Shown in pieces: positions 33,606 to 61,996 of a stretch of DNA of 64,000 nucleotides. The position numbers and the translations under genes were made by a program. The stretch comes from Candidatus Tayloriibacteriota bacterium (GTDB lineage: Bacteria; Patescibacteriota; Minisyncoccia; Phycocordibacterales; PALSA-1337): contig CALRBR010000001.1 of the NCBI GenBank assembly GCA_943354385.1, forward strand, positions 2,942 through 66,941, read 5' to 3'. The notes beneath the pieces are model-generated. The model was not told the DNA's origin, ran no database searches, and saw only the letters and a list, made by a program, of their open reading frames with translations. The stretch's first letter is position 1. Each line of letters begins with the position of its first letter.

Positions 33606-33647
33606 TTTTTGAATAGGGGTAAAAAGTTTGTCGAGTATTGATTAAAA

Positions 33648-33694: not shown

Positions 33695-33745
33695 ATCCAC
33701 ACATACACACAGACTTTTCCTATTATTAGGTATATAATTGTACCT

Positions 33746-36700
33746 ATGCGTTTAGCAAAGTTATTTTTTGCTTCTATCCTTTTTATTTTCGGCTCGTTGT
33801 TTTTTGTATCTACGGCATCGGCGCAGTCTTTTCAGAATCCTCTTCTGTTTGTTCCATTCGAATTGGATTATGTCGACTATAGCTCCAATAAGCTCTATAG
33901 CAACTGGTTTACAGGAGGAGCTCCGGCCGACATTGATACAAGTATAAAAAAATTCGGTTCCGCTTCCGGCCATTTTCCAGCTACGGGAATAGATAGGGAG
34001 ATGTTATACAAAAGCCCTAATTTTGATTTCTCTAATCAAGATTTCACCATCGATTTCTGGTGGTATCCAACCACCCAAAGCGTGGGTTTTTTTAATAAAC
34101 CACTACTTTCTTTTTGGGATCTCAATGGAAGTGGTGGCATCAATAATGTTAAGTGGGCTTTAATCTATTTTAGTGAATATGATTTTTTTGCGGTGGTTGA
34201 TTACAATAAGGGAGTAATTCTACGTTCGATTGATAGTGGTGGACTATTAAATTTTAACCAATGGAATCATATATCTGTACAATGGAAGCAGGGGACAGGG
34301 GGTACCGATGGTGGCAGTGGGCTGGGTATTTCTATAAATGGCAAGATGCGTTCGTCAAACTCTTTTTATAACAATGGCATGATCCCGTCTGGGGTGGGTG
34401 CTATGGTGGTTGGAGACAGTGGTTCATCCTGGCCACGCGTCGATTATTATCTGGATGAACTTCGTGTTACAAAAGGTACAGCTCTATGGGGAAGCGTCGC
34501 CAATCAGAACGGTTCCTTTACCACTCCATCTATTAATGATTATCCAAAAATTGAAAACAAGACAGCGGAATCTGTTATAAGTACTACCGCTACACCCATG
34601 GTTCAAGGTACCATACCTCTTCTACTCGCGCATTTTGATAATAATTATTATGATAATAGTATAAATAATATTTACAGCAATTGGTTTATTGGCGGGGGAC
34701 CGTCTGAGATTGATTCGGCTATAAAAAAGTTTGGGATTGGGTCGGGACATTTTTCTGCAACAGGAATAGATAAGGAGAATCTATACCAAGACCCTCGGTT
34801 AGACCTTGCGAGCGGCGATTTTACTGTAGATTTCTGGTGGCGTCCGACAGGTGATTTGACTAGCTTTAATAAAATCCTATTGAGTTTTTGGGGTCTTGAT
34901 GCAAATAGTCTCATAAAAGATCGGAAGTGGTATCTAAAATATGACGGGAGTGGGGCGAACCCAGGTTTTGAAGTGGTTAATGATCAGGGTAGAATGCTTC
35001 GCTGGATGGGTAGCGATTCGCTTTTGAAGGTCAACGAATGGAATCATATTTCTCTACAAAAGAAACAGGGATCAGGGGGTAGTGATGGTGGTAGTGGTCT
35101 CGGTCTTTCTATCAATGGATATATGCGACCGTCCAATTCTTTCTATAACTACGGCACCCTTCCAGGAGGGGTTGGTGCGATGGTCCTAGGGTATAAAGAT
35201 ACAAGTTTCCCGAGAGTTGATTACTATATTGACGAACTTCGTGTCACAAAAGGTACAGCTCTCTGGGGGAATGTTAGTAATCAGAATGGTTACTTTGCTC
35301 CGCCCACAAAAGGTGATTATTCCAATCTAGTAGTAGATCAAAATAAAGTAACTACTCCTGTCGCTGGTCATATTGATACGCATACTGTCTCCCTTGGTAA
35401 CACCACTGATACTACTGAATCAAATGTTGCCTATTCTGCATGCCCTCCTGGATCGACCAGGCCATCTACACGCGAAGAGTATTTGATCAAACTCGACGGC
35501 ACCCCAAAGTTCACGAGCTATCTTGATATAAACAATAAGCTGATCTGTACGACGTATTGGGCAGGTAATGCGACAACCACTACCAGTAGTAAGCTAAAGC
35601 GTTTTGAGTACGATACTGATGGTCAGATCGCTCGAGAGATCTATTATGGTTTGGACGGTGCAAGTATTACTGATGTGGTGACTTATTTTTCAAAATCTGC
35701 CGGAGGTGCTCGTCAAAAGGAGATTCAAAATCGAAGCGGTACCGAATATTACAAGCGCTACTCGACTACCGGCAGACTTCTCTATGAGCACGAATATAAA
35801 AATAGTCAGTATGTAGTGTCGCGTAACTTTACGTATGATGGGGCAGGTAGACTCGCAAGCGAACTTATCTTTAACTCATCGGTTCAATATGAAAAAGTCG
35901 TTTATATACGAAATGGCAGTGGAGTCGTAACACAGACAGATAGTTACAGAGCGTATGCACCGATAGGTACAGATACGGCAAATTATGTCCACACCACCTC
36001 TACCTACGCAGGTACGGTGGTGACAGGTATTACTCGTACTTATTTCAATAAAGATGCTGGCTCACCGACGGCTTTGCGCACTGAAATAGCCCGATATAAT
36101 ACTTCCGGTGTAGCGATAGATCAGAGGACATTTGACTACGCTCAAAATAAACAAAAGTTGAGTACCTACATCACTACTGGCACAGCATCATTGCTTGGGC
36201 GACTGAAGACAGACGAGGAGTGGTCTACTGTGGATTATTCATACGCCTCATCTTCTCTTGCGTATAACACGACTACCGGCGAGCTCCTTTCTTGGACTAA
36301 AACCAACTATGACGATATGAGTGCTCAGGGCGCAAAAGCTGGATACTACGGGAAAAAATACACGGTGTATAACCCTAAAACAGGCTTACCCAAAACGGAG
36401 GATTTTATTGACTACTATTTACCTAGCTTAAATTGGAAACAATCCAACTCTGTTAAGTATGATGAAAAAGGTTTGGTGGATGCACGTCGGGTTCATCAGT
36501 ACAGAGATTCTGCTGCTGCAAGATTTAACTACATATCTACAGTATATTCAAAAGACGGGCTCATAAATGCGATTTCAAAGTATGACGATGTGACTGGTAA
36601 TGTTCTTTCTAACGAAACATATTATGGAAATGGCGAGCCTTGGTATCTTCAAAAATATAAGTACAATACTGCCGCTGGCCAATACGAAGTCAGTTCTTTC

Positions 36701-39700
36701 AGGGTAAATTATAGGGATGCTCTTTCTACCAGTACGGCGAGTGATCTTGTAGCTGACGGTACTGCCGTGAATACAAATCTCCTTGTTTTTGTGAGTCAGT
36801 CAGTCCCGAGAGACCCACTTAGTCAAAAGAAAATAGGTGATAAGATCTTGGCTAATATTTCTGATGTGTCTCTTCGTGGCCAAGCGGAGGGCGGTACTGA
36901 AAAGTTGGCTATTCGTGCGGTGCTCAAGGCTCTCTTACCAGAGTATAAAAACGCCCTCGTTACTGTTTCTGAAAGTGATCCACTCAAAAAGGAAAAACGT
37001 TACGAGATCTACGTGGCGTATTCCTCGAGAATATCTAGAGCGATTTATGCAATAGAGTATCGTATCCATAATATATCAAAAAATCTTAATACAGATAAGT
37101 CCTTAGAGGACACGGTGGTGGGATGGTATGGTATAGACGGTACTGATCTTTCAGGCAACACAGAATTCTGGGGTCTATATATACGACCGGGGGCAGTGGC
37201 GTATGCAGATCCAGAAGCTGTCTATGTAGACATGAGTATCATAGATCCATCTGCGGTTGATTTTGCCACAAACGCTTCTTCCTACGATGACCTCAAGAGT
37301 ACTGCAAAGAAAATAGAAAAATGGGACGCGCTCAGCCAGGGTGCGGGTGTCTCATATTCGAATAGTACTCTATCATTGTCATTGTTCAACCTATCCGGCG
37401 GCGACGGTAGATACATCACACTTGATGATATGACAAAAGCTGACCCAACAGTAAATCTTACATTGGATAGGTTTGAGGAGGACATGAAGACTTCGGGGGT
37501 AACACTCTCCACTCTTAGTGAGTCGGCGCTCATAGATAAGATGTATGAATACTTTAATAAACAAAGCTATTTCAGCTATTCGTACGACCTATCACAAGTA
37601 TCACAGACAGTAAATCAAACCTTGGTACGTAAAGGTGGAGATTGTGAAGATTTTGGTCTATTCTTCCTTAGTTTATTGAGGGGTGAATTTGCTAGACTCG
37701 GTAACACATCTATCACAAGCAGACTTGGTTTGGCGTTTGCGAATGTTGATAATAACGCTGCTATTTCGTCGAGTAACCGCGGAGGAGGTCATGCGTCTAT
37801 TGTGTATAGAAGTAATGCAGACAATCAGTACTACTATATTGATGCAAGCTTTATATTTTTGGGATCAGGGGCGGATCCTGCGAGACCTGTACCAGTAGCA
37901 CGTAATCTTGTAAACTCTGCCGGTGCCAGTACCGCAGGTGTATTGGGTCAGGGTGGCTGGTATGTAAAGGTTGCTGACTTCTTCCCAATAAACGGCCCAC
38001 TTGTCCCTTTTAATTCAGGACGTATTAGTACTTTCCACGATAACACCAGCCAGACTAATTCCGTAGATACCATTGTCGCCCAAGTTTCAAATATCTACAC
38101 CAAACTAGAACCATACAATCCGCTAGTCACCACACTTGCTTCGAGTACAGTCCAGACTATTCCTAACTTCAAAAATCAGTCAGCGGAGTTTGTGGTAGAA
38201 AGTACGCACAGCTTCTTTAATAAACTGAAAGATTACAGAGCCGATCAGGGAGCAGATATCTGGAGTGGTGTAGGTCAGACATTGCCAGCGGTTATAAAAG
38301 CAGACGGCACAGTCAATCTCGCTGGGAAGATTTCTGGCGACTGTGAGGACCTGGCTTTTGCTGAAGCGAGCCTCCTTGAAAATGTGCTTCTACGATATTA
38401 CCTTGCTGGTGGTGCCGTGCCACAAAATGCCGCCAATCAGGCAAAAAGTAATGTCATAATACTCGCTGAAAAGAATTACGGCTCATCGACAGGTCCCTCA
38501 CATCTCTATGTCGGCTATGTGACCCCTAAGACAGATACTTCTCCAGCTGTTGTCCGTCTCATTGATCCACAGCTCGGCACTATCGGCGCACCTCAGCTCA
38601 TGAGCGATTTGTATAACGACAAGTATCTATTCTTTTCTGACCGGGAAAAGGTGAGTGCGATTACTCCATACGATTGGAGTGCACTCAATTTTTCTTCTGC
38701 TGTAGCTGCCGCTGCTGCAAATGGTATCGTGTTAAATCCTGGTCCGGTAGATCCAAAGGCTCCGGTAAAGCAGAATCTCACCCCTAATCAACAGGAAGCG
38801 ATCATTAATGCGATAGTCACTGCAGACCCACCAAAGCCAAGTGCATTCAGTACATTTATTAGTTTTGTGTACGAAAAATCCGGACTAAAATCGATACTAG
38901 AGGCGAGTACTATTACAGAAACTTTTGTCCGAGCAGCAGCAACTTTGGCAGTGATGATAGGTGGTGGACCAGTAGGGACAGTAGTCACAGCATCTGGCAC
39001 TATTATTAATACAGCCTCAGGGTCACCAGCAGATAAGCCTATCATTCCTAGCGTAGGTGATGCAGCGGTTTCTGTTATAAATACTGCAGGGCGAGTCGTG
39101 GCGAGTGTTTTCGGTATCTTTACGGCACCAGGTGGACCATCTGATATGTCTGACGCACGAATGAACGCTGAGGCAGCTTTTGCTGCTGGGAGAATCAGTC
39201 CAGCTGGACCAATGAATTTCGGTTCCGGTGCTGGAGATGTAGGTTGCTCCGCGGCTTCATGCGGTACTGTTTTTGTCCAAAGAAATAATACTACAAATGT
39301 GGTATCTGCGATTGGCTATGGTGAAACATCTCGTACTAATCAGACTAGGTCGTATAACGAGTCTACTAATGTGATGACCATTACTACCAATACCACGATT
39401 GTACTACCTCTGTCGCCATATTTTCAGTCGCCAACAGCCCGTCTTATACCGCCAAAACCTACATGCCCCCTAGGCACCCAACTTTGTTCCGAGGTAACCA
39501 ATGAGATAGTTAGAGCTCCAGCAAACGCCACTCTTTCCGGTCCTCTGGCTACCTGCTATGTTTCTGGTGAAGCACCGTCTTGTCAGACGCGTCAGTACAA
39601 TACACAGTGGTCGTGCAATAACTCACTTTTGTATAAAAAAGATGCTACAGGTACAGGCTGTATCTGTGATGATCCAACAGCAACTGGTGTTAGTCCAGCG

Positions 39701-40576
39701 GGTGAGTGTCAGTACGGCGCGACGATATCCTGTGTGGGGGGTATTGATCCAAACGCCATACCGTCACCAGTAGGTGTTGGTGCGAAAGGGGTCAGTTCAT
39801 TCCCTGCTCCAGCTGGCCGAATTTCTTCTCCGCTAGCGTGGACACTTTCTAGTACAGCTGTTGCGGACGGTAATACCGAATGTAAATGGTCGTGTGGTAC
39901 CGGGTTTACTTTTGACGCTGGATTTTGTAAATCGAGTCAAGTATTTTCTTGCACGGATCCTGTCGGAGTTACACCGATGAATAGTCCAAAGATGACTTTG
40001 TGTCCAGAAGATCAGAGAGATCTTTCTTCAGACACACAAGGTGTAATTGTCACTAGCTGTACCATCCCTAAAAAATGTGAGTATACATGCAATCTTCCTA
40101 CGTATACACGTTCCTCGACACCACCATTTTCTTGTGTTTGCTCGATAGGGACAAACCCTGATGGATCGTGTACACTGCCCACCGTGACTTCTTCTAACGT
40201 GAGTATCTTTGCTACCCCTGGAACAAAAGTTACTGGTAATATTGTAACTCAATATCTGGATACTAATAAATCAACCGCTATTAATAAAAAGATTACCGTA
40301 AAAAAGAACCAGGAGTTTAAATTGAATTGGGAGCATACTACACCAAGCGCCTCAGGTAAATGTACGCCAACATTTACCAGTCCTATTACTGGCACTGGTG
40401 CGGAAGCACTATGGAAAGAAGTCCTACCTACTGGAGTGAATGGTTCAAAGGAGGGTTTGAAACTAGATAAAACCGGCCAGTATATCTTTGGAGTTTCTTG
40501 TGATTCAGGAGGTATAACTTCTGCAGATTCCGTAACTGTACAAGTAGCACCATCCGGTTCATTTGAAGAATTTTAA
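33746..40576 (+). CDS. giant secreted multidomain protein: signal peptide, 2x LamG-like (Laminin_G_3-type), YD/RHS repeats, 2x transglutaminase-like cysteine-protease cores, Cys-rich region, C-terminal beta domain
   Basis: Signal peptide MRLAKLFFASILFIFGSLFFVSTASA. Two ~230-aa units ending in LDELRVTKGTALWG (LamG-type). FEYDTDGQIAREIYYG and FTYDGAGRLASE YD repeats. GGDCEDFG...GGGHASIVYRS...YYIDAS and GDCEDLAFAEASLL...HLYVGY...IDPQ (transglutaminase-like Cys/His/Asp cores). More than 30 Cys between nt 39470 and 40190. Confidence 0.85.
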   Translation: MRLAKLFFASILFIFGSLFFVSTASAQSFQNPLLFVPFELDYVDYSSNKLYSNWFTGGAPADIDTSIKKFGSASGHFPATGIDREMLYKSPNFDFSNQDFTIDFWWYPTTQSVGFFNKPLLSFWDLNGSGGINNVKWALIYFSEYDFFAVVDYNKGVILRSIDSGGLLNFNQWNHISVQWKQGTGGTDGGSGLGISINGKMRSSNSFYNNGMIPSGVGAMVVGDSGSSWPRVDYYLDELRVTKGTALWGSVANQNGSFTTPSINDYPKIENKTAESVISTTATPMVQGTIPLLLAHFDNNYYDNSINNIYSNWFIGGGPSEIDSAIKKFGIGSGHFSATGIDKENLYQDPRLDLASGDFTVDFWWRPTGDLTSFNKILLSFWGLDANSLIKDRKWYLKYDGSGANPGFEVVNDQGRMLRWMGSDSLLKVNEWNHISLQKKQGSGGSDGGSGLGLSINGYMRPSNSFYNYGTLPGGVGAMVLGYKDTSFPRVDYYIDELRVTKGTALWGNVSNQNGYFAPPTKGDYSNLVVDQNKVTTPVAGHIDTHTVSLGNTTDTTESNVAYSACPPGSTRPSTREEYLIKLDGTPKFTSYLDINNKLICTTYWAGNATTTTSSKLKRFEYDTDGQIAREIYYGLDGASITDVVTYFSKSAGGARQKEIQNRSGTEYYKRYSTTGRLLYEHEYKNSQYVVSRNFTYDGAGRLASELIFNSSVQYEKVVYIRNGSGVVTQTDSYRAYAPIGTDTANYVHTTSTYAGTVVTGITRTYFNKDAGSPTALRTEIARYNTSGVAIDQRTFDYAQNKQKLSTYITTGTASLLGRLKTDEEWSTVDYSYASSSLAYNTTTGELLSWTKTNYDDMSAQGAKAGYYGKKYTVYNPKTGLPKTEDFIDYYLPSLNWKQSNSVKYDEKGLVDARRVHQYRDSAAARFNYISTVYSKDGLINAISKYDDVTGNVLSNETYYGNGEPWYLQKYKYNTAAGQYEVSSFRVNYRDALSTSTASDLVADGTAVNTNLLVFVSQSVPRDPLSQKKIGDKILANISDVSLRGQAEGGTEKLAIRAVLKALLPEYKNALVTVSESDPLKKEKRYEIYVAYSSRISRAIYAIEYRIHNISKNLNTDKSLEDTVVGWYGIDGTDLSGNTEFWGLYIRPGAVAYADPEAVYVDMSIIDPSAVDFATNASSYDDLKSTAKKIEKWDALSQGAGVSYSNSTLSLSLFNLSGGDGRYITLDDMTKADPTVNLTLDRFEEDMKTSGVTLSTLSESALIDKMYEYFNKQSYFSYSYDLSQVSQTVNQTLVRKGGDCEDFGLFFLSLLRGEFARLGNTSITSRLGLAFANVDNNAAISSSNRGGGHASIVYRSNADNQYYYIDASFIFLGSGADPARPVPVARNLVNSAGASTAGVLGQGGWYVKVADFFPINGPLVPFNSGRISTFHDNTSQTNSVDTIVAQVSNIYTKLEPYNPLVTTLASSTVQTIPNFKNQSAEFVVESTHSFFNKLKDYRADQGADIWSGVGQTLPAVIKADGTVNLAGKISGDCEDLAFAEASLLENVLLRYYLAGGAVPQNAANQAKSNVIILAEKNYGSSTGPSHLYVGYVTPKTDTSPAVVRLIDPQLGTIGAPQLMSDLYNDKYLFFSDREKVSAITPYDWSALNFSSAVAAAAANGIVLNPGPVDPKAPVKQNLTPNQQEAIINAIVTADPPKPSAFSTFISFVYEKSGLKSILEASTITETFVRAAATLAVMIGGGPVGTVVTASGTIINTASGSPADKPIIPSVGDAAVSVINTAGRVVASVFGIFTAPGGPSDMSDARMNAEAAFAAGRISPAGPMNFGSGAGDVGCSAASCGTVFVQRNNTTNVVSAIGYGETSRTNQTRSYNESTNVMTITTNTTIVLPLSPYFQSPTARLIPPKPTCPLGTQLCSEVTNEIVRAPANATLSGPLATCYVSGEAPSCQTRQYNTQWSCNNSLLYKKDATGTGCICDDPTATGVSPAGECQYGATISCVGGIDPNAIPSPVGVGAKGVSSFPAPAGRISSPLAWTLSSTAVADGNTECKWSCGTGFTFDAGFCKSSQVFSCTDPVGVTPMNSPKMTLCPEDQRDLSSDTQGVIVTSCTIPKKCEYTCNLPTYTRSSTPPFSCVCSIGTNPDGSCTLPTVTSSNVSIFATPGTKVTGNIVTQYLDTNKSTAINKKITVKKNQEFKLNWEHTTPSASGKCTPTFTSPITGTGAEALWKEVLPTGVNGSKEGLKLDKTGQYIFGVSCDSGGITSADSVTVQVAPSGSFEEF

Positions 40577-41911: not shown

Positions 41912-42502
41912 TTAATTTTTTAAATTAAAATACTTACAAATCATCTTGTCACCCTCGAGTTGATCGACTATCATATAGAGAACATCTTTGCCGATACGCA
42001 AATCTGCCTTCAAAAGAGACACGAGTTTTTCGCACGGATATGGGTATATCCAGACGCTGTTCTGAAGTTTTATAAAGCCGATTGACATTAATGTTGATCG
42101 AAGTTTTTCCCGAATAAACTTCTTTCTTTCTGGAATATCGAAAATAATCACACGCCACTTCTTATCCCACCTTGGCGGATGGTTATTTTGTTTTGAAAAA
42201 AGAATTGCTCGGTCGAGCATCTTTTTGCCCCTTTCTGTGAGTTGAAGTACCTTGCCATGAACTGTGACCTCAACTTTCAGGAAGCCATTTTTGATAAGAT
42301 TATCTTTCGTTCTCAGTATACTTTTGTGTTTGTAATTATAGGCTTTCCTGTCTCCAGAACCGATCTTCAATAATTTTAAGGCATTTGGAGCAAGAAGTCC
42401 GAGTGCAAGTATTCCGGTGGCAGATACAGTTCCAAGTATTATCTGTTGGAGTTTTGTTGTTCGTATCTTGTTCCTCTCCCGTTTTTCTAGTAAGTTGTTC
42501 AT
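41912..42502 (-). CDS. membrane-anchored wHTH plus Cas2-fold (PaaX-family-like) putative regulator
   Basis: N-terminal hydrophobic helix. wHTH-like LIKNGFLKVEVTVHGKVLQLTERGKKML. C-terminal VIIFDIPERKKFIREKLRSTLMSIGFIKLQNSVWIYPYP resembles the Cas2/PaaX C-domain (VxxYDI...RR...L...G.R.Q.SV). Confidence 0.45.
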   Translation of the reverse strand: MNNLLEKRERNKIRTTKLQQIILGTVSATGILALGLLAPNALKLLKIGSGDRKAYNYKHKSILRTKDNLIKNGFLKVEVTVHGKVLQLTERGKKMLDRAILFSKQNNHPPRWDKKWRVIIFDIPERKKFIREKLRSTLMSIGFIKLQNSVWIYPYPCEKLVSLLKADLRIGKDVLYMIVDQLEGDKMICKYFNLKN

Positions 42503-45701: not shown

Positions 45702-46220
45702 ATGTTTTCCAATCCAGAACGGAATATTGAGCAGTTTGACATACAGTCTGGTATGTCCGTCGCTGATTTTGGCGCCGGATCGGGTTTCTATACTATTGCC
45801 TCGGCAAAAGCAGTGGGCGGTGCTGGCAGGGTTTTTGCCGTAGAGGTACAAAAAGAGCTTTTGGAAAAGCTCAAGGCACAGACAAAGCAACTTCATCTCG
45901 GTAATGTAGAAGTAATCTGGGGCGATATCGAAAAAATGGGAGGCACCAGACTTAAAGATTCATCTATAGACCGTGTCATTGCATCAAATGTTCTTTTTCA
46001 GCTTCATGATGCTCAATCATTTTGTAATGAAGTAAAGCGAGTACTAAAACCAGGTGGCAAAGTTCTTTGTATTGATTGGTCAGATACTAGCCCGCTCGGG
46101 CCAAAGTCTCTCGTCACCCCAGACTCAGCAAAAGCACTTTTTCACACTGCAGGATTTACCTACGGTACGTCTATTATCGCTGGCGAGCATCATTATGGAC
46201 TTATTTTTATAAAACAATGA
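45702..46220 (+). CDS. class I SAM-dependent methyltransferase (type 11-like)
   Basis: VADFGAGSGFYTIASAK (motif I) and VLKPGGKVLCIDW (motif III/IV region). Confidence 0.65.
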   Translation: MFSNPERNIEQFDIQSGMSVADFGAGSGFYTIASAKAVGGAGRVFAVEVQKELLEKLKAQTKQLHLGNVEVIWGDIEKMGGTRLKDSSIDRVIASNVLFQLHDAQSFCNEVKRVLKPGGKVLCIDWSDTSPLGPKSLVTPDSAKALFHTAGFTYGTSIIAGEHHYGLIFIKQ

Positions 46221-47503
46221 GTAATTTTCAAACAATTCTTCTCGGTATCTTTATCTTTTTTATTGTTATTGGTGTGGCTATATTTGCTACTTTAAAAGGC
46301 TCGTCAAATAAGGAGTCGATCGGTATCGTGATGTGGGGCACGGTCCCATCAGACACTTTTGGGCCATTTGTAAATAAAATAAACGAAGGTTTGGAAAAAC
46401 AACTTAAAATTACATACATTGAAAAAAGACCCGACACTTTTGATCAGGAGTATATCGAAACACTAGCAAAAGGTGGCGGACCAGACGCTATCCTGCTCTC
46501 GCAAGATTTAATTTTGCGACATCGGGACACGATTATTCCTGTTTCGTACGCCACATTCCCAGAGCGTGATTTTAGAGATACGTTTATTGCAGAAGGGGAG
46601 CTTTATCTTGCGCCACAGGGAATTATTGCTTTTCCATTTAGTATTGATCCTCTCGTGATGTATTGGAACAGAGATAGTTTTACTAATGCCGGTCTCGCTA
46701 CCTATCCTCGGACATGGTCTGATATAGCCGCCCTGACTGGTTTTTTGACCACACGAGACGCTGCTTCAAATGTTAGTACCAGCGCGGTCGCTCTCGGTGA
46801 GTTTAGAAATATAAATCATGCAAAGGAAATCCTTGCAGCTCTGATTATTCAAGCGGGTAATCCAATCACCAGCTATACCGCTGAGGGTGGGGTAGACAAT
46901 CTATTTGCAGACAGACTCAGTTTTGCTACTGCACCGACCGAGACCGCGCTATCTTTTTATACTAAATTTTCAAATCCTACAGATCAGCTATATTCATGGA
47001 ATCGCGCGCTACCTACTTCAAAAACCTATTTCTTGAGTGGCAACCTCGCAACCTATTTTGGTTTCGCTTCAGAACTTTCAGATATTCGTACCAAAAATCC
47101 AAATCTCAACTTTGATGTGGCTGTACTCCCACAGGCACTTTCAGGTAAAAATCGTGCGACATTTGGAAATATGTTAGGTTTGGCTATTTCAAAGAGCACA
47201 AAAAGTCCAGATAACACTCTCTCTGTGCTTGCAGGTCTTTTCAACAGAGAAGCGATCGCTATTTGGTCTGAGTCTACAAAGCTTCCTCCGGTACGACGTG
47301 ATCTGCTACTCACTCGTCCACAGGATCCATATCTTTCTATTTTTTATGATTCAGCTCTTATTTCAAAAGCATGGCTCGATCCTCGACCAGAATCGACGGA
47401 CACTATTTTCAGGGATATGATCGAGTCGGTCACTAGTGGCAAAAGTCGAGCAGGAGAAGCTGTCAGCACGGCGGGTATACAGATAGATAATTTGTTACAA
47501 TAA
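46217..47503 (+). CDS. extracellular solute-binding-protein-like (SBP family 1-like), membrane anchored
   Basis: N-terminal TM or signal anchor. GGGPDAILLSQD, PLVMYWNRDSF and TWSDIAAL resemble the SBP_bac_1 hallmarks. It overlaps the MTase stop by 4 nt. Confidence 0.5.
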   Translation: MSNFQTILLGIFIFFIVIGVAIFATLKGSSNKESIGIVMWGTVPSDTFGPFVNKINEGLEKQLKITYIEKRPDTFDQEYIETLAKGGGPDAILLSQDLILRHRDTIIPVSYATFPERDFRDTFIAEGELYLAPQGIIAFPFSIDPLVMYWNRDSFTNAGLATYPRTWSDIAALTGFLTTRDAASNVSTSAVALGEFRNINHAKEILAALIIQAGNPITSYTAEGGVDNLFADRLSFATAPTETALSFYTKFSNPTDQLYSWNRALPTSKTYFLSGNLATYFGFASELSDIRTKNPNLNFDVAVLPQALSGKNRATFGNMLGLAISKSTKSPDNTLSVLAGLFNREAIAIWSESTKLPPVRRDLLLTRPQDPYLSIFYDSALISKAWLDPRPESTDTIFRDMIESVTSGKSRAGEAVSTAGIQIDNLLQ

Positions 47504-47507
47504 AACT

Positions 47508-48002
47508 ATGAATATATTTGTTCTCACAAATACGCAAAAAACTTTTTTTAAGACTGGTGTGGTTTTTTGTTTAGCCCTTGTTCTTTTGGCAGTGCCTGTG
47601 TTGGCACTTGCTCAAGGTCCTTTACCTGGAGATCCAGACTTTGTGGGTCCAGTACAGCGTGGGGGACTCGTACCATGTGACGGGCCTTCTTTAGATAAGC
47701 CCGGATTGGTGTCACCACCCGGCTATGTTCCATGTGATTTTAAAGCTCTACTCAATGGTATCAACGGCATTATCAACTGGCTCTTTATTATTGCAATACC
47801 TGTCTCACTTGTCGCTTTTACTTATGCTGGTATTCTTTTTATGTCAGGCAAGGAGGGCAATATCACCGAGGGAAAAGAGATTTTCCTAAAGGTGGTGCAA
47901 GGAATAGCGATCATGGCGGTCGGGTGGCTTTTGGTTCACACGATTATCAGAGCCCTTCTCAATCCCAAGGCGGATCTGGGAGCGTATTTATTTGGGTTAT
48001 AG
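47508..48002 (+). CDS. small secreted 2-TM protein, paralog 1 (VirB2/TrbC-like architecture)
   Basis: Signal peptide (VLALAQG), Pro-rich linker, then two hydrophobic helices (WLFIIAIPVSLVAFTYAGILFM / GIAIMAVGWLLVHTII). Confidence 0.55.
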   Translation: MNIFVLTNTQKTFFKTGVVFCLALVLLAVPVLALAQGPLPGDPDFVGPVQRGGLVPCDGPSLDKPGLVSPPGYVPCDFKALLNGINGIINWLFIIAIPVSLVAFTYAGILFMSGKEGNITEGKEIFLKVVQGIAIMAVGWLLVHTIIRALLNPKADLGAYLFGL

Positions 48003-48048
48003 TGGGAAAAGGAGGAATAAGACCAAAAAGATTAAGCTTTAAATAACA

Positions 48049-48414
48049 ATGAAAATCACACAAAAATATAAGAGCATGTTATTGGCGACGGCAGTGATGG
48101 CAATGTTGGTTTCGGTGAGTATCGTCTCGGCTCAAAGCACAGGCTCGTTTACGCTACCCAATCCAATCAAAGCCAACAATATCCAAGATCTCGTTTTTCA
48201 GATTACCGATATTGTTTTGATCATCGCGATACCTATATCAGTTCTTCTACTCATTTATTCGGGTTTCCTTTTTGTAAAGGCACGGGGCAATGAGACTGAG
48301 GTCACTGAGGCAAAAAAAACATTTTACTACACCATCATCGGTATTGCGGTGCTTTTTGGTGCCCGTTTCTTGTCAGAAATAGTCCGTGGTACAATTGAGC
48401 AATTAAAGGGTTAA
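48049..48414 (+). CDS. small secreted 2-TM protein, paralog 2
   Basis: Signal peptide (VSIVSAQS). DIVLIIAIPISVLLLIYSGFLFV / YTIIGIAVLFGARFL. Confidence 0.55.
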   Translation: MKITQKYKSMLLATAVMAMLVSVSIVSAQSTGSFTLPNPIKANNIQDLVFQITDIVLIIAIPISVLLLIYSGFLFVKARGNETEVTEAKKTFYYTIIGIAVLFGARFLSEIVRGTIEQLKG

Positions 48415-48429
48415 TTATTATTAAGAAAT

Positions 48430-49029
48430 ATGAAAAAAAATACTTCATTTTTAGGGAAGGTAGCTATGCTAGGGGGAGCGCTCATGCCAGCGCTAGTTTT
48501 TGCTCAGGGCAAGATTACGACTTTTGAGGGTTTGGTAAATAAATTTATTTCGATTATCAAATATGTAGTACCACTTATTTTTGCTATTGCTCTCGTCGCC
48601 TTCCTTTGGGGGGTTTTCCAGTATTTCTTTTCTGGTGCAGAGAAAAAGGAGGAGGCCAAGGATTTTCTACTCTACGGTATTATCGGGCTGTTTATTATGG
48701 TTTCGGTGTGGGGACTAGTGCGAATATTGACCGGTACTTTTCTTTTAGAGAATGCTCAGCCGAATTTACCCGGCCTGGGTGCCGGTAGTAGTTCTTCTGG
48801 ATCTGGTAGCGGTGGATATTATCAGGGTTATCCAGGGGGTGAGAACTACCGACCTACTTCTGGAGCTGGTAGCGGGGCGTCTCCGTTTGATTCAAATGCG
48901 CCTATTAGTGGATCTGGATCAACAAGTGGCGGCAGTGGTGATGGTAGTGCTGACGGATCGGGAAGTGGGTCCAGAGATAACCCCGGAACAGCTGAATTGG
49001 ATAAGGCGGCAGGGGATTTTCCCAGATAG
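48430..49029 (+). CDS. small secreted 2-TM protein, paralog 3, with Gly/Ser-rich C-terminal tail
   Basis: Signal peptide (ALVFAQG). VVPLIFAIALVAFLWGVFQYFFSG / LYGIIGLFIMVSVWGLVRIL. The tail is GSGSGGYYQGYPGG...GSGSTSGGSGDGSADGSGSGS. Confidence 0.55.
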   Translation: MKKNTSFLGKVAMLGGALMPALVFAQGKITTFEGLVNKFISIIKYVVPLIFAIALVAFLWGVFQYFFSGAEKKEEAKDFLLYGIIGLFIMVSVWGLVRILTGTFLLENAQPNLPGLGAGSSSSGSGSGGYYQGYPGGENYRPTSGAGSGASPFDSNAPISGSGSTSGGSGDGSADGSGSGSRDNPGTAELDKAAGDFPR

Positions 49030-49134
49030 CTTATCCACAACAGTGTTTGTCGATAGGTCCCAGTATGCTACAATTAGTCCACAGACCTCGTGTCTCATTA
49101 ACAGATTTTATTATTAAGAAGTAATATATACAAT

Positions 49135-49494
49135 ATGAAAAAAGCGTTTATTGCACTTTCAGCGTTTGCACTTCCTGCCCTAGCTCTTGCTCAGGCAGTA
49201 CGAGATGCAAACACCCTTTTTAGTAAAGCGACCAACATTTTGAATGCAATCATCCCGATTGTTATTTCACTGGCGGTAGTAGTGTTTATTATAGGTATCT
49301 TCCGATACATCATTGCAGGAGATGAAGAGTCAAAAAAAGGAGCAAAAAGCTTGATTCTTTACGGTATTATCGGTATTTTTGTGATGATTTCTGTCTACGG
49401 GCTTGTGCGAGTATTGGTAAACACTTTTGGACTAGAGAAACAGCTCGATAACTCAGATATACCACAAGTGCTGCCATTCCGAGGAGGACTCTAA
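49135..49494 (+). CDS. small secreted 2-TM protein, paralog 4
   Basis: Signal peptide (ALALAQA). IIPIVISLAVVVFIIGIFRYIIAG / LYGIIGIFVMISVYGLVRVL. Confidence 0.55.
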   Translation: MKKAFIALSAFALPALALAQAVRDANTLFSKATNILNAIIPIVISLAVVVFIIGIFRYIIAGDEESKKGAKSLILYGIIGIFVMISVYGLVRVLVNTFGLEKQLDNSDIPQVLPFRGGL

Positions 49495-49498
49495 AGAT

Positions 49499-49777
49499 AT
49501 GTTTGAGTTAGTACCTATAACCAAAGCGAGTATGGTGTCTGACCTCATGGGTCGGGTCAATCAGTTTGTCTTGGGGCCGATTATGCAACTTCTGTTTGCC
49601 CTGGCTTTTATCTATTTTCTCTATGGTGTGCTAGTTTATTTTATAAACCCACTGGATACGGAGAAGCGAGCGGAGGGTAGACAGCATGTGATGTGGGGAT
49701 TGATCGGGCTATTTATAATGTTTTCGGTTTATGGGATTATACGCCTTGTGTTGGGGACATTTGGGATTTCTTATTAG
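49499..49777 (+). CDS. small 2-TM protein, paralog 5 (no signal peptide)
   Basis: LLFALAFIYFLYGVLVYF / MWGLIGLFIMFSVYGIIRLVL shares the family core YG(I/L)IG(L/I)F(I/V)M.SVYG(L/I)(V/I)R. Confidence 0.5.
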   Translation: MFELVPITKASMVSDLMGRVNQFVLGPIMQLLFALAFIYFLYGVLVYFINPLDTEKRAEGRQHVMWGLIGLFIMFSVYGIIRLVLGTFGISY

Positions 49778-49805
49778 AGAAAAGACTAGCAGGAGAAATA
49801 CAAAA

Positions 49806-49834
49806 CCCCCGCGACGTAGTCGCGGGGGTTTTGT
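49806..49834 (+). terminator. rho-independent terminator after the 2-TM array
   Basis: cccccgcgacg-ta-gtcgcggggg followed by TTTTGT. Confidence 0.7.
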
Positions 49835-49927
49835 ATTATGTGTTTATATATATCTAGCAAAAAATAAAAAACCAGGGTCTGAACAAATTCAGATGCACCT
49901 GGCTCGCGTTGTTTGGGGGACTCACAG

Positions 49928-50530
49928 TCAGAGGCCGGTAAAGACGACCCGGACTTCTTCCCGCTCGGTGCCGGAAGTGAATCGGAGTGCCCGCAGGACC
50001 TTGGGGTGTGACTCTCCCCGGTTATGGGTGTGCCACACAAGGTCGAAGTCCTGCCACTCGTTCAGCACCGTCCGCTGGGTTTCCCATCGAGCACTTGCTC
50101 CGAGGGGGACTACGACCTCGACGCTACTGTTTGGCGCCAGTTTCAGTGTTTCCCGAGAGGTCGACTTGACCTCGTGGGCGTTGGGATTGATGATCACATT
50201 CCGGCTAATGGCGTTACCATTGCCTGCTGTGAAAACGTCTCCTTCCGTGAAGTGCACCGTGGGCGTGGGTGGGACCTCGGCCTTGGCTGGCGCCGGAGGG
50301 TTTGTGGCCAACTGCTGAGTCGGTGCCGGTGACTGAGCCTGGGCACTCGCTCCCCACGAGGGGAGGGGCCCTTCATAAGACGACACCCTCCAGAGGAACA
50401 TCCACCAGAGGCATCCTGCCAGGACAATGCCCAGGAGTATTGCAACTCCTTGTGCGTTGTTGTGTTGCACCGCGGGCACTGCGATGACCGCCGGCTTTCC
50501 ACCGCAGATCCAAATCCAGATTTTTTTCAT
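49928..50530 (-). CDS. hypothetical membrane-anchored or secreted protein (GC-rich island)
   Basis: Start at MKKIWIWI. TM helix GVAILLGIVLAGCLWWMFLW, Pro/Ala-rich linker, then an unknown ~110-aa C-terminal domain. Confidence 0.45.
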   Translation of the reverse strand: MKKIWIWICGGKPAVIAVPAVQHNNAQGVAILLGIVLAGCLWWMFLWRVSSYEGPLPSWGASAQAQSPAPTQQLATNPPAPAKAEVPPTPTVHFTEGDVFTAGNGNAISRNVIINPNAHEVKSTSRETLKLAPNSSVEVVVPLGASARWETQRTVLNEWQDFDLVWHTHNRGESHPKVLRALRFTSGTEREEVRVVFTGL

Positions 50531-50640
50531 AGGCTTTTTTTTGAGTTTGATTTCCTCCGACACTGCCACGATGGACAGCCCTAATTCTGCGTGTGTATTG
50601 CCCACAGATATAGGAGAGGGGACGCTTCGTTGAGAGCGTA

Positions 50641-50672
50641 TCATTCCCCCTTTTCTAAAGGGAGAATGACTC
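50641..50672. repeat. single hairpin module (ATTCCCCCTTTTCTAAAGGGAGAATG) of the modular repeat family
   Basis: cattcccccttttctaaagggagaatgactcg. Confidence 0.6.
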
Positions 50673-50978
50673 GTCTGAAGTGCCTCTTCTTCTATATCTG
50701 TGACTTGTGTGCCAAAGAACTGTAATTTACCTCTACCTTCAATTATAGCATACTATGTATACATTTGTCAAGTGTTTATGTATAATATGGCTCAAATAAG
50801 CCAAAAAGCTTTGTTTTTAGGGGGGGGTAGAACTACTCTAAGAGAAAATAAGCAAAGCTTTTTTCAACTTCGACTCGAACGCTGTAAACGAGAGTACTCG
50901 CTTACGCGCTTCTCGCTTGTTGAAATAAAAAAGCCAACACTCGGGGCGTTGACCTGGGGGAAAGAAGAGTGGATCGGT

Positions 50979-51386
50979 CTAGGCCTGGGCCATGGCTGGC
51001 GTCGACCCTATGAGGCGGTCAGGAATTAGTATTGCAAAAGATTCGATGAGTTCGGCAAATGCGACCGGCTTCGTGAGGAGGAGATCCGCCTCATGTCCTT
51101 CGGCGTTATTTGGTCGACCAGTCCACATCATGACTGGCGTGTTCGGTGCGATGACCTTGATACGAGCCGCAAGCTCAATGCCATCCATTACCGGCATTTC
51201 CATGTCAGTTAAAACGGCATGGAATGGCTCACGTTGTTCAAGGATCGCCACTTTGGCCAACTGACCATTTTCTGCACAGACAACTGTGGCGCCACACATC
51301 TCCAGCATTCTTCTGGCGTTGACCCTGAGCGCATCATCGTCGTCAACGATGAGCAACCTTGTTCCTTCTACGAATCTTCTGGGCAT
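50979..51386 (-). CDS. single-domain response regulator receiver (CheY-like)
   Basis: LLIVDDDDALRVNARRMLEMCG...VLTDMEMPVMDGIELAARIK...TKP carries the phospho-acceptor Asp, the acidic pocket and the conserved Thr/Lys. Confidence 0.75.
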   Translation of the reverse strand: MPRRFVEGTRLLIVDDDDALRVNARRMLEMCGATVVCAENGQLAKVAILEQREPFHAVLTDMEMPVMDGIELAARIKVIAPNTPVMMWTGRPNNAEGHEADLLLTKPVAFAELIESFAILIPDRLIGSTPAMAQA

Positions 51387-51527: not shown

Positions 51528-51751
51528 ATAAAATAAGCTAGAGAATATAGCAGGTTTTACAAGAATTGGCAATCTAGCTGGGTGTAACTTTTCGGTTCTT
51601 GGAGGCGGGAAGTTCGAAACTTACAGTTTCAGTACCCCGATTGGATTTTTTCTTCATGTTTCGCAATTGAAAAAACGCTCAATCGGGCTTCGATTCCCAC
51701 CGAAAGCGTCCCCACGCTTTCTCCCGAGTACAATATCACTGCGTTCGTCTG

Positions 51752-51835
51752 TGCTCGGGGTGGGAATCGAACCCACACGGCCTTGCGGCCAACAGATTTT
51801 AAGTCTGGCGCGTATACCAATTCCGCCACCCGAGC
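51752..51835 (-). tRNA. tRNA-Leu(TAA), type II
   Basis: The reverse complement is GCTCGGGTGGCGGAATTGGTATACGCGCCAGACTTAAAATCTGTTGGCCGCAAGGCCGTGTGGGTTCGATTCCCACCCCGAGCA. The anticodon loop is CTTAAAA. Confidence 0.85.
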
Positions 51836-60999: not shown

Positions 61000-61435
61000 G
61001 TCTTATAAATATGAATGCGGGCCCACCTAGACTCCTGGGGAACCCACGGTTGATAGTCCGCTGAGTACCATCCTTACAGGAGCTGTACACCTTTCGCTCT
61101 CTTTGGAGTACAAAGCGCTCAAGGTCTTGCGAAGCTCCAGGTATTCGCTTCTCACCTTACATGAGTAGTATCCATCGCTGGACTTTTTCTTCGCGAGTAC
61201 ACTTAAAAAAGTACTCAGCGAGGCTTCGAGTCTCAGACACCTCGTAAACCCACGGTTTTCCGACGCTCGTCGGGCTCGCTGCCTTCCTCCACGGGAAAAC
61301 GCCATCTTCCTTACAGGAACTGTACACCTTTCGCTTTTTGAATACAAAATACTCAAGGTCTTGCGAAAGTGTCCCACACTTTCTCACCCGACCCCTTTCC
61401 ATGTCTCATCGTCCATTTGTTCGCTTCGCTCTCTG
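61000..61435 (-). repeat. tRNA-trailer composite element E (3' of tRNA-Trp on the - strand), with an interrupted core and two ~62-nt internal direct repeats
   Basis: On the - strand: GGAAAGGGGTCGGG (61386-61399 on +) ... inserted unit ... GGCGTTTTCCCGTGGAGGAAGG. Units are at 61062-61124 and 61301-61360. The module shared with element F is at 61184-61240. tgcgggccc at 61016-61024 duplicates the tRNA-Trp 3' end. Confidence 0.7.
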
Positions 61436-61507
61436 CGGGCCCGCTGAGACTCGAACTCAGAACTTCAGTTTTGGAGACCGATGTTTTACCATTGAAACTA
61501 CAGGCCC
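61436..61507 (-). tRNA. tRNA-Trp(CCA)
   Basis: The reverse complement is GGGCCTGTAGTTTCAATGGTAAAACATCGGTCTCCAAAACTGAAGTTCTGAGTTCGAGTCTCAGCGGGCCCG. Anticodon loop CTCCAAA. T-arm CTGAG-TTCGAGT-CTCAG. Confidence 0.85.
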
Positions 61508-61723
61508 AGTAGGGCAATCATAGCATGTATTTGCTCTGTATCACAAGGGATATTTTACTAAATGGCTCATTAGAAGCCTATTTTGAGTAAATAAGGGAGC
61601 TGTCCTTGACTTTATAATTCAAGTATGCTATATTTAGGTTTGACAACACAGGGTCGGAGGATCCTGATTTTTGTTGGCTCATTGTCAGTTCATGTCGGTA
61701 AACGTTGTTTGAAGAAAAAGCCT

Positions 61724-61939: not shown

Positions 61940-61996
61940 AAATGTCGGTAAAAGAAATAAACACAGAAACTCGGGAAAACAAAAAGAACTCAGAAA

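What the first reader, a model, noticed from the sequence alone, without database searches (positions are those of the whole stretch)
47508..49777. Tandem array of five divergent small 2-TM (VirB2/TrbC-like) secreted proteins behind a solute-binding-like gene
There are five consecutive + strand genes of 92-199 aa, all with the same architecture. Each has a signal peptide ending AxA (absent in the fifth), a short mature N-segment, a first hydrophobic helix, a charged loop (G.EE.KK.AK), and a second helix with the shared core LYGIIG(L/I)F(I/V)M.SVYGL(V/I)R(I/V)L. The C-terminal tails vary, and one is a long Gly/Ser-rich tail. The spacers are tiny, and a strong terminator follows the last gene. 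This is the topology of T4SS pilins (TrbC/VirB2). The fifth member has no signal peptide and could be VirB3-like. No VirB4 or VirD4 is in the window. The array is immediately followed by a GC-rich island, which could have displaced neighbouring genes. Tandem diversification of a surface-exposed small protein is notable. The identity as pilins is inference from architecture only.
Basis: inference. Interest (0 to 1): 0.65.

Follow-up and report, generated by a model that had tools for sequence, protein, structure and literature searches.

The report
Ordered pilin-like gene array in Patescibacteria
Five neighbouring genes for small membrane proteins of the conjugation-pilin (VirB2/TrbC) family sit behind a sugar-binding-protein-like gene in an ultrasmall Patescibacteria bacterium; such arrays are already published, but this one is a fixed, ordered gene set welded to the binding-protein gene in every related species examined.

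Summary
There are five same-strand ORFs: 47508-48002, 48049-48414, 48430-49029, 49135-49494 and 49499-49777. Each encodes a two-helix membrane hairpin; four have an AxA↓Q signal peptide and the fifth does not. A 19-bp terminator follows. Four of the five pass the Pfam threshold for PF18895 (T4SS_pilin). Gene 2 also passes TrbC/VirB2. Gene 1 is a member by profile-profile comparison. The pilin reading is therefore supported, and the VirB3 idea for gene 5 is not.

The genome is a Paceibacteria (Patescibacteria). VirB2-like arrays of 2-11 genes in this phylum are already published (PMC12102498, PMC10633639), so the kind is known.

What I add:
- In 72 of 72 related species the MalE-fold, membrane-anchored binding-protein gene is followed directly by such an array.
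- The positions are orthologous across species (first 97%, second 98%, penultimate 79%, last 88%), and each class has its own invariant residues.
- Selection is purifying.
- A promoter-like gap splits the array before the penultimate gene.
- No VirB4-like gene lies within 10 kb.

It looks like a fixed set of specialised subunits, not a variation cassette. The 'GC-rich island' is an old resident, not a recent insertion. Function is inferred only.

The parts
45702..46220 (+). Class I SAM-methyltransferase gene (172 aa). Its stop overlaps the start of the binding-protein gene. It is often but not always part of the conserved module, and its role is unknown.
   Evidence: Methyltransf_31/11/25 hits. 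A homologue lies directly upstream of the binding-protein gene in 58 of 71 related loci.
46217..47503 (+). Membrane-anchored MalE-type solute-binding-protein-like gene (428 aa), with an N-terminal TM helix at residues 3-28. No ABC permease or ATPase gene lies beside it. It is the invariable upstream partner of the array.
   Evidence: SBP_bac_8 at 47.6 bits and SBP_bac_1 at 36 bits. The AF2 model has pLDDT 90.7. Foldseek against the PDB gives E~1e-20 to maltose/maltodextrin- and sugar-binding proteins. In 72 of 72 related species a pilin gene follows, at a median gap of 1 nt.
47508..48002 (+). Pilin-like gene 1 (164 aa), class 'first position'. It has a signal peptide (ALA|Q), a mature N-segment with an invariant Cys pair (C57, C76; VPCxG...C.F), then the two-helix hairpin.
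   Evidence: PF18895 at 23.2 bits, below the cut-off. 44 of 45 orthologues hit PF18895. hhalign to the class of gene 4 gives 98.6%. Both Cys are invariant in 45 orthologues. 97% of best cross-genome hits are at the same position.
48049..48414 (+). Pilin-like gene 2 (121 aa), class 'second position'. It has a signal peptide (VSA|Q), an invariant N38-P39 and a TARGN-type loop.
   Evidence: PF18895 at 36.3 bits and PF04956 TrbC at 34.3 bits, both above their cut-offs. 98% of best cross-genome hits are at the same position.
48430..49029 (+). Pilin-like gene 3 (199 aa), 'middle' class, whose copy number varies from 1 to 4 between species. It has a signal peptide (VFA|Q), the hairpin, and a ~95-aa Gly/Ser-rich C-terminal tail predicted to be extracellular.
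   Evidence: PF18895 at 39.4 bits. Middle positions show only 26-45% same-position best hits, and array size ranges from 2 to 8.
49030..49134 (+). 105-nt intergenic gap with a promoter-like site at 49047-49074 (TTGTCG-16-TACAAT, TG-extended). It is the likely start of a second transcription unit, gene 4 plus gene 5.
   Evidence: Site found. The gap before the penultimate gene has a median of 99.5 nt in 56 arrays, against 6-16 nt elsewhere. 61% of gaps have a match of at least 9 of 12, against 28% of shuffles, with a peak 31-43 nt before the start codon. In L093 a foreign gene sits exactly in this gap.
49135..49494 (+). Pilin-like gene 4 (119 aa), class 'penultimate'. It has a signal peptide (MKK...LP..ALA|Q) and the hairpin, and is the best-conserved member. 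It is the candidate major subunit.
   Evidence: PF18895 at 41.2 bits. It is 89% identical to its orthologue in the closest relative, with dN/dS 0.06. AF2 gives a signal-peptide helix plus helices 25-60 and 64-97. 79% of best cross-genome hits are at the same position.
49499..49777 (+). Pilin-like gene 5 (92 aa), class 'last'. It is a two-helix hairpin without a functional-looking signal peptide, and starts 4 nt after gene 4.
   Evidence: PF18895 at 33.3 bits, with no VirB3 or PrgI hit. hhalign to the class of gene 4 gives 99.8%, E 8e-28, with its N-terminus aligned to the signal-peptide cleavage region. 88% of best cross-genome hits are at the same position.
49797..49837 (+). Intrinsic terminator closing the operon. 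It is a perfect 19-bp stem with A-run and T-run flanks, so it is probably bidirectional with the convergent minus-strand gene.

Best explanation
This is a chromosomal operon of a Paceibacteria (Patescibacteria/CPR) bacterium. A membrane-tethered MalE-fold binding protein is followed by an ordered set of five VirB2/TrbC-superfamily (Pfam PF18895) pilin-like paralogues.

Shown here:
- Family membership of all five genes.
- A Sec-type signal peptide with an AxA|Q site on genes 1-4, and a two-helix hairpin with a short charged loop on all five.
- Strict linkage to the binding-protein gene.
- Positional orthology, with class-specific invariant residues.
- Purifying selection.

Inferred:
- The proteins are inserted by Sec/YidC and trimmed by signal peptidase I, which is encoded in the window at 28446-29291. 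They then sit as membrane hairpins with both ends outside.
- They are assembled into one heteromeric pilus-like filament or envelope-spanning conduit. The assembly machine would be the monoderm-type T4SS that most Patescibacteria carry (VirB4, VirB6, VirB3/PrgI-like, TrsD-like), encoded elsewhere in the genome.
- The conserved penultimate gene has its own promoter-like site and would give the major subunit.
- The first (disulfide loop), second, middle (surface Gly/Ser tail) and last (no signal peptide, probably membrane-retained) classes would be specialised minor, tip or base subunits.
- The binding protein acts with this structure at the cell surface, in ligand capture or host-surface recognition.
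For: - Pfam and profile evidence for membership.
- Hairpin model and hydropathy.
- The top 80 relatives are all Patescibacteria/Paceibacteria.
- In 72 of 72 loci with enough sequence the array follows the binding-protein gene at a median of 1 nt, and array size is 2-8.
- The linkage survives in 15 loci where the upstream gyrA synteny is broken.
- Positional orthology is 97/98/79/88%.
- dN/dS is 0.06-0.20.
- An internal promoter-like gap is conserved.
- The binding protein has a MalE fold and a TM anchor.
- Signal peptidase I is in the window.
- Literature: VirB2-like pilins and arrays are widespread in Patescibacteria. They lie near virB4 in 1,135 of 1,948 assemblies and are essential in Southlakia epibionticum (PMC12102498; PMC10633639; PMC12857230).
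- VirB4 is recorded in 3 of the 4 genomes of my related loci that appear in that paper's Table S1.
Against: - No T4SS ATPase or VirB6 is in the 64-kb window.
- In the +-10 kb flanks of 80 related loci, no recurrent family of ORFs of at least 400 aa carries a Walker A motif, so physical linkage to a T4SS is absent in this clade.
- Whether this genome has VirB4 at all could not be tested.
- Structure searches with the pilin model return only generic helical hairpins. A profile search of PDB sequences finds the pKM101 pilin TraM only at E=0.4.
- No pilus of this family has been seen in any Patescibacterium.
- The heteromeric-assembly idea and the role of the binding protein are inference only.
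Confidence: 0.6

Rival explanations
1. Variation cassette. The paralogues would be interchangeable versions of one pilin, kept to vary the exposed surface or to match different host strains. The literature proposes this for patescibacterial arrays by analogy with Bartonella and Anaplasma VirB2 paralogues.
For: - Identity between paralogues is low (mean 26%).
- The middle of the array varies in copy number, from 1 to 4.
- Genes 1 and 3 evolve fastest (60% and 73% identity where gyrA is 92%).
- The idea is stated in PMC12102498.
- Two independent assemblies break right after the array.
Against: - The first, second, penultimate and last positions are orthologous across 53 species.
- Each class has its own invariant residues, such as the Cys pair, the NP motif, or the loss of the signal peptide.
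- For nearly every gene the best cross-genome match beats the best within-array match.
- Gene-wide dN/dS is well below 1.
Confidence: 0.15
2. T4SS-independent membrane complex. The hairpin proteins would stay in the membrane and, together with the tethered binding protein, form a dedicated uptake or sensing device. The pilin fold would have been co-opted, with no VirB4 involved.
For: - The linkage to the binding-protein gene is absolute (72 of 72), and the genes are spaced as if translationally coupled.
- No VirB4-like gene lies within 10 kb in 80 species.
- No ABC permease lies next to the binding-protein gene.
- The last member lacks a signal peptide.
- One related genome is listed without VirB4, although it is only scaffold-level.
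Against: - There is no precedent for such a device.
- The family is homologous to bona fide TrbC/VirB2.
- In other Patescibacteria the same family lies beside virB4 and is essential together with it.
- Most genomes of the phylum have VirB4.
Confidence: 0.2
3. Holins, bacteriocins or toxin-immunity membrane peptides.
For: The proteins are small and have two TM helices. Gene 4 has a weak Phage_holin_4_1 hit (E 0.027, 15 bits).
Against: - That hit is below the family cut-off of 22.2 bits, and the other four genes have none.
- There are no phage, lysin or bacteriocin-processing genes nearby.
- The module sits in a conserved housekeeping neighbourhood across a whole class.
Confidence: 0.02

Closest known systems
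VirB2-like pilin arrays of Patescibacteria (Quinonero-Coronel et al. 2025, PMC12102498; the essential six-pilin array in the T4SS locus of Southlakia epibionticum ML1, Wang et al. 2023, PMC10633639; the 'Sec secreted array' of TM7x)
   Same: It belongs to the same Pfam family (PF18895/PF04956) and the same phylum. It is a tandem array of 2-11 sequence-divergent but structurally alike paralogues, and my mean identity of 26% matches their 25%. It is chromosomal and has no relaxase context.
   Different: This array is not in or near a virB4 cluster, neither in the window nor within 10 kb in 80 relatives. It is welded to a MalE-fold binding-protein gene, which none of the papers found by my library searches mentions next to these arrays. 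The paralogues have a fixed order, with orthology across species and an internal promoter-like break. The published work reports arrays as most abundant in Microgenomatia and Saccharimonadia; this one is in Paceibacteria.
TrbC/VirB2 conjugative pilins of diderm T4SSs (Agrobacterium VirB2, RP4 TrbC, F TraA, pKM101 TraM)
   Same: They share the signal peptide plus two hydrophobic helices joined by a short charged loop. Gene 2 passes the Pfam TrbC threshold.
   Different: Those systems have a single major pilin per system, encoded beside virB3/virB4, in a diderm envelope. They have no binding-protein partner. Cyclisation or acetylation signals were not examined here.
Multiple VirB2 paralogues of Anaplasmataceae and Bartonella
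   Same: Several divergent virB2 copies lie in tandem in a host-dependent bacterium.
   Different: Those are thought to be alternative surface variants. Here the copies form conserved positional classes under purifying selection.
Minor-pilin / pseudopilin operons of type IV pili and T2SS (e.g. GspG-H-I-J-K)
   Same: By analogy only: an ordered operon of one major and several specialised minor subunits of the same fold.
   Different: It is an unrelated protein family, with no prepilin-peptidase motif and no N-methylation signal.
Mycoplasma ICE 'Mbov_0395 family pilin-like conjugal transfer protein' (NCBIfam NF045849)
   Same: Genes 2-5 give consistent weak similarity (23-26 bits, E 4e-6 to 4e-5). 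It is a monoderm T4SS context.
   Different: All scores are below the curated cut-off of 40, and that protein is a single gene inside an ICE.

Membership tests
Pfam PF18895 T4SS_pilin | Score at or above the gathering threshold of 26.6 bits | tested here: met
   Genes 2-5 score 36.3, 39.4, 41.2 and 33.3 bits. Gene 1 scores 23.2, below the cut-off. It is still a member: 44 of 45 of its orthologues hit the family at E<=0.01 (best 1.2e-14), and hhalign to the gene-4 class gives 98.6%, E 8.7e-16.
Pfam PF04956 TrbC/VirB2 pilin | Score at or above the gathering threshold of 27.9 bits | tested here: inconclusive
   Only gene 2 passes (34.3 bits). Genes 1, 3 and 4 score 15.4, 21.6 and 15.2, and gene 5 has no hit. 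Among first-position orthologues, 7 of 45 hit at E<=0.01.
VirB2-type pilin (architecture) | Cleavable signal peptide, two hydrophobic helices, short charged connecting loop | tested here: met
   Shown by hydropathy, the alignment and AxA|Q motifs read from the sequence. The AF2 model has helices 25-60 and 64-97 after a signal-peptide helix. Gene 5 lacks the signal peptide.
VirB2-type pilin (structure) | Specific structural match to solved T4SS pilins | tested here: inconclusive
VirB2-type pilin (system context) | Encoded with, or in a genome with, VirB4 and other T4SS assembly proteins | tested here: inconclusive
   None is in the window. In the +-10 kb flanks of 80 related loci, no recurrent family of ORFs of at least 400 aa carries a Walker A motif. 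VirB4 is listed as present in 3 of 4 related genomes in Table S1 of PMC12102498.
VirB2-type pilin (function) | Polymerises into an extracellular pilus | not testable with these tools
   This needs microscopy or biochemistry. It has not been shown for any patescibacterial member.
Patescibacterial VirB2 array (PMC12102498) | Two or more pilin genes in tandem, with low identity between copies | tested here: met
   There are five genes, with mean identity 26% and maximum 41%. The published figures are a mean of 25% and a maximum of 54%.
VirB3 / PrgI (proposed for gene 5) | Profile match to VirB3 or PrgI families | tested here: not met
   No such hit appears at E<=1 in Pfam or NCBIfam. Gene 5 is instead a PF18895 paralogue (33.3 bits; hhalign 99.8%). 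CONJScan profiles were not available.
ABC-transporter substrate-binding protein (upstream gene) | Type II periplasmic-binding-protein fold | tested here: met
   SBP_bac_8 and SBP_bac_1 score above their cut-offs. The AF2 model has pLDDT 90.7. Foldseek gives E~1e-20 to MalE and sugar-binding proteins.
ABC-transporter substrate-binding protein (upstream gene) | Partner permease and ATPase genes | tested here: not met
   None is adjacent in the window or in the annotated related loci. A partner elsewhere in the genome cannot be excluded.
Holin / bacteriocin | Profile match above threshold, or a lysis or bacteriocin gene context | tested here: not met
   The only hit is Phage_holin_4_1 for gene 4, at 15 bits against a cut-off of 22.2. 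The surrounding genes are housekeeping.

The most novel reading that the evidence does not exclude
The binding-protein-plus-ordered-pilin module could be a nutrient- or signal-capture apparatus. A VirB2-derived heteromeric conduit on the surface of an epibiotic cell would work with a tethered sugar-type binding protein to take up host-derived molecules. That would give the long-speculated 'T4SS pilus as uptake conduit' of Patescibacteria a concrete component whose ligand can be tested. An even stranger version has the hairpin proteins and the binding protein forming a VirB4-independent importer.
Probability: 0.15. Interest if true: 0.8.

Novelty: new variant of a known kind. Interest (0 to 1): 0.4.

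Why it matters
Patescibacteria make up a large share of uncultured bacterial diversity, and they depend on host cells for most building blocks. Their unusual T4SS and its pilin array are essential in the one species tested, but what they do is unknown.

The array here is a class-wide, fixed set of specialised subunits. It is co-transcribed with a highly conserved sugar-type binding protein and separated from the ATPase genes. That turns a vague 'variable pilins' picture into a testable one. The questions become which subunit is the major one, what the binding protein binds, and whether the structure is a heteropolymer.

The finding as originally framed (a pilin-like tandem array) is not new.

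Tried and rejected
- **Profile search of PDB sequences with the pilin alignment.** It gave no significant hit; pKM101 TraM came up at E 0.4.
- **Extending the contig beyond the window to look for T4SS genes.** I used exact-protein look-ups of the end genes. One end gave only transketolase, a TPR protein and MurJ. The other end gene is not on record.
- **dN/dS against the two closest relatives.** dS is 1.1-3.2, or undefined, so it is saturated. The values show only that there is no gene-wide positive selection. Site-level tests were not possible.
- **VirB4 near the array in relatives.** I looked for recurrent families of ORFs of at least 400 aa with a Walker A motif in the +-10 kb flanks of 80 loci and found none. 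This is a crude test.
- **Genes downstream of the array in relatives.** They are mostly without Pfam hits and have no T4SS link.
- **GC-rich island as a recent insertion at tRNA-Leu.** Rejected, because L089 and L091 carry a positional counterpart with the same high GC, and no direct repeats flank the region.
- **Literature searches.** I looked for a link between binding proteins and VirB2 arrays in Patescibacteria and found nothing.
Full report
**1. The observation**

The five + strand ORFs are at the stated coordinates: 47508-48002 (164 aa), 48049-48414 (121), 48430-49029 (199), 49135-49494 (119) and 49499-49777 (92).

Hydropathy gives an N-terminal hydrophobic segment plus two further hydrophobic helices in genes 1-4, and only the two helices in gene 5. 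The predicted cleavage sites, read directly from the sequence, are ALA|Q, VSA|Q, VFA|Q and ALA|Q. Gene 5 cannot be extended upstream, because the ORF list starts at the first start codon after a stop.

Mean pairwise identity among the five is 26%, with a maximum of 41% (genes 3 and 4). The strongly shared second-helix core holds for genes 3-5 only. The spacers are 4 nt (binding-protein gene to gene 1), then 46, 15, 105 and 4 nt. A perfect 19-bp stem-loop with a T-rich tail follows at 49797-49837.

An HMM built from the five proteins finds no further copy in the 64-kb window.

**2. What family the genes belong to**

Genes 2-5 pass the gathering threshold of PF18895 (T4SS_pilin, cut-off 26.6 bits) with 36.3, 39.4, 41.2 and 33.3 bits. 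Gene 2 also passes PF04956 (TrbC/VirB2) with 34.3 bits against a cut-off of 27.9.

Gene 1 scores 23.2 bits, below the threshold. Two results still place it in the family. First, 44 of 45 of its orthologues in other species hit PF18895 at E<=0.01, the best at 1.2e-14. Second, a profile of its class aligns to the profile of the gene-4 class with hhalign probability 98.6%, E 8.7e-16.

Gene 5 has no VirB3 or PrgI hit at E<=1. Its class aligns to the gene-4 class at 99.8%, E 8e-28, and its short N-terminus lies over the signal-peptide cleavage region. It is therefore a pilin paralogue with a vestigial signal peptide, not a VirB3.

Genes 2-5 also give consistent sub-threshold hits to the Mycoplasma ICE 'pilin-like' family NF045849.

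No holin or bacteriocin family reaches its threshold.

**3. The organism and the neighbourhood**

The window is ordinary chromosome of a reduced genome. It encodes MurJ, LepA, DinB, a Mur ligase, a class I tRNA synthetase, TsaD, FtsZ/FtsA, HisRS, signal peptidase I, S1, GyrA, IF2, ClpB, MiaA and ten tRNAs. No VirB4, VirD4 or VirB6 family was hit.

The same array, 100% identical at the protein level, is in GCA_943356385.1 and in other assemblies.

A scan of one genome per GTDB species with the upstream 428-aa protein found 437 relatives. The best 80 are all Patescibacteria of the Paceibacteria/Parcubacteria group: Taylor-, Zambryski-, Campbell- and Wolfebacteria and unnamed lineages.

**4. The upstream gene**

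It has an N-terminal TM helix and a full MalE-type binding-protein fold:
- SBP_bac_8 and SBP_bac_1 score above their cut-offs.
- PDB sequence hits are to MalE and to a mannobiose-binding protein.
- The AF2 model has pLDDT 90.7.
- Foldseek gives E~1e-20 to maltose/maltodextrin- and other sugar-binding proteins.

The protein is unusually well conserved: about 50% identity across the clade, with 35 invariant columns that include many aromatic residues. No ABC permease or ATPase gene lies next to it.

**5. The module is conserved, ordered and bipartite**

- **Linkage.** In 72 of 72 related loci with more than 600 bp downstream of the binding-protein gene, pilin-family ORFs follow directly on the same strand, with a median gap of 1 nt. 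The 63 complete arrays hold 2-8 genes, most often 6 or 5.
- **Flanking synteny.** The order gyrA - methyltransferase - binding protein - pilins ... rbfA - infB is common. The binding-protein/pilin link also holds in the 15 loci where gyrA is not upstream. The methyltransferase is adjacent in 58 of 71 loci.
- **Positional orthology.** In 53 arrays of at least 5 genes, the best match of a gene in another genome is at the same position in 97% of cases for the first gene, 98% for the second, 79% for the penultimate and 88% for the last. For middle positions the figure is only 26-45%, and their copy number varies. For almost every gene the best cross-genome match beats the best within-array match.
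- **Class signatures.** Each class has its own invariant residues:
  - first: two Cys (VPCxG...C.F);
  - second: N-P and a TARGN-type loop;
  - penultimate: MKK..LP..A.AQ;
  - last: no or a vestigial signal peptide, and an invariant Pro.
- **A conserved break.** The gap before the penultimate gene has a median of 99.5 nt, against 6-16 nt elsewhere. In 61% of arrays it holds a sigma-70-like site matching at least 9 of 12 positions, against 28% of composition-matched shuffles. These sites peak 31-43 nt before the start codon; the window's site is at 49047-49074. In one relative a foreign minus-strand gene sits exactly in this gap. The array is therefore probably two transcription units.

**6. 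Rates of change**

Against the two closest relatives, identities (closest / second closest) are:

| Gene | Identity (%) |
|---|---|
| gyrA | 92 / 92 |
| binding protein | 85 / 71 |
| gene 1 | 60 / 56 |
| gene 2 | 79 / 73 |
| gene 3 | 73 / 60 |
| gene 4 | 89 / 59 |
| gene 5 | 83 / 75 |

dN/dS for the pilin genes is 0.06-0.20. dS is saturated, so this excludes only gene-wide positive selection.

**7. Link to a T4SS**

None is in the window. In the +-10 kb flanks of the 80 related loci, no recurrent family of ORFs of at least 400 aa carries a Walker A motif.

Published work found VirB4 in most Patescibacteria, and VirB2-like pilins in 1,948 assemblies that have VirB4, near virB4 in 1,135 of them. 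It also reported 441 arrays of 2-11 pilin genes in 383 assemblies, with a mean identity of 25% (PMC12102498).

In Southlakia epibionticum the pilin series lies inside the T4SS cluster and is essential (PMC10633639; PMC12857230).

Four genomes of my related loci appear in that paper's Table S1. Three are listed as having VirB4, including the complete Campbellbacteria genome. One scaffold-level genome is not.

Whether this particular genome has VirB4 could not be tested.

**8. Interpretation**

Membership of the patescibacterial VirB2-like pilin family is secure. Fixed order, positional orthology, class-specific invariant residues and purifying selection all argue for a set of specialised subunits of one structure, rather than interchangeable antigenic variants.

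The most likely mechanism, by inference, is as follows. The proteins are inserted by Sec and cleaved by signal peptidase I. They reside in the membrane as hairpins. The distant T4SS then assembles them into a heteromeric pilus-like filament or conduit. Gene 4 would supply the major subunit, and the binding protein would act at the same surface.

A T4SS-independent complex with the binding protein remains possible. I rate the variation-cassette reading low and the holin/bacteriocin reading negligible.

**9. The 'GC-rich island'**

The 238-aa minus-strand gene (GC 0.58) and the response-regulator gene beyond it have positional counterparts in relatives. Those counterparts have a GC of 0.56-0.59 (238-aa gene) and 0.46 (response regulator), and only 31-36% identity. 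An independent assembly reads through the junction at 100% identity. The region is old and fast-evolving, not a recent insertion that displaced neighbours.

**10. Novelty**

The kind is known: it is a Pfam family, described in two primary papers and a review. The parts I did not find in the searched literature are:
- the strict coupling to a binding-protein gene;
- the positional orthology;
- the bipartite transcription layout;
- the separation from virB4 across a whole class.

I therefore rate it a new variant of a known kind, of moderate interest.

Noticed in passing
window 33638-40576 (+): A 2312-aa ORF whose only Pfam hit is Laminin_G_3 (concanavalin-like lectin). It lies between the Lactamase_B_3 gene and gyrA, which sit about 1 kb apart in most relatives. 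It looks like a lineage-specific giant surface protein.
   Followed up: partly
window 49928-50644 (-) and 50979-51386 (-): A 238-aa ORF with GC 0.58 (TM segment, Pro/Ala-rich linker, no Pfam hit) and a stand-alone response-regulator receiver with GC 0.53, in a genome of about 0.43 GC. Positional counterparts in L089 and L091 keep the high GC of the 238-aa gene but are only 31-36% identical. A perfect TTGACA-18-TATAAT promoter lies at 50771-50742 (-). A 26-nt inverted repeat (50603-50628 / 50677-50702) sits between it and the ORF.
   Followed up: partly
window 49782: Contigs from two other assemblies (GCA_943356385.1 and ENA ERZ27280257) both end exactly here, 5 nt after the last pilin gene's stop codon and just before the terminator hairpin. 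A third assembly reads through at 100% identity. This could reflect strain heterogeneity downstream or an assembly problem at the hairpin.
   Followed up: partly
window 51686-51701 vs 51759-51774: A 16-nt inverted copy (94% complementary) of the T-arm/3' end of tRNA-Leu lies about 50 nt beyond the tRNA's 3' end. It may be a tRNA fragment or an old attachment-site scar.
   Followed up: no
window 61700-63000: A second GC-rich patch (GC 0.53) lies next to tRNA-Trp (61435-61507, -). It has overlapping ORFs on both strands (218 and 334 aa) with no Pfam hit.
   Followed up: no
L093 4190-5176 (-): In a distant relative, a 328-aa minus-strand gene of unknown family is inserted exactly in the gap before the penultimate pilin gene. 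It splits the array into the binding-protein gene plus three pilin genes, and two pilin genes.
   Followed up: partly
window 48049-49777 (genes 2-5): Genes 2-5 give consistent sub-threshold similarity (23-26 bits, cut-off 40) to NCBIfam NF045849, the Mycoplasma ICE 'Mbov_0395 pilin-like conjugal transfer protein'. This hints that monoderm T4SSs of Tenericutes carry a related small hairpin protein.
   Followed up: no
L014 8890-9396 (-) and L033 8875-9441 (-): Some relatives carry one extra pilin-family ORF (168-188 aa) on the opposite strand, just upstream of the methyltransferase gene.
   Followed up: no
window 41912-42502 (-): A 196-aa protein with a PaaX_M (Cas2-like) domain lies upstream of gyrA. 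A homologue appears downstream of the array in L094.
   Followed up: no
L095 15407-18225 (-): In a Nomurabacteria relative, type IV pilus genes (T2SSE ATPase, T2SSF platform, N_methyl pilin) lie 5-8 kb downstream of the array. This was not seen in the window.
   Followed up: no
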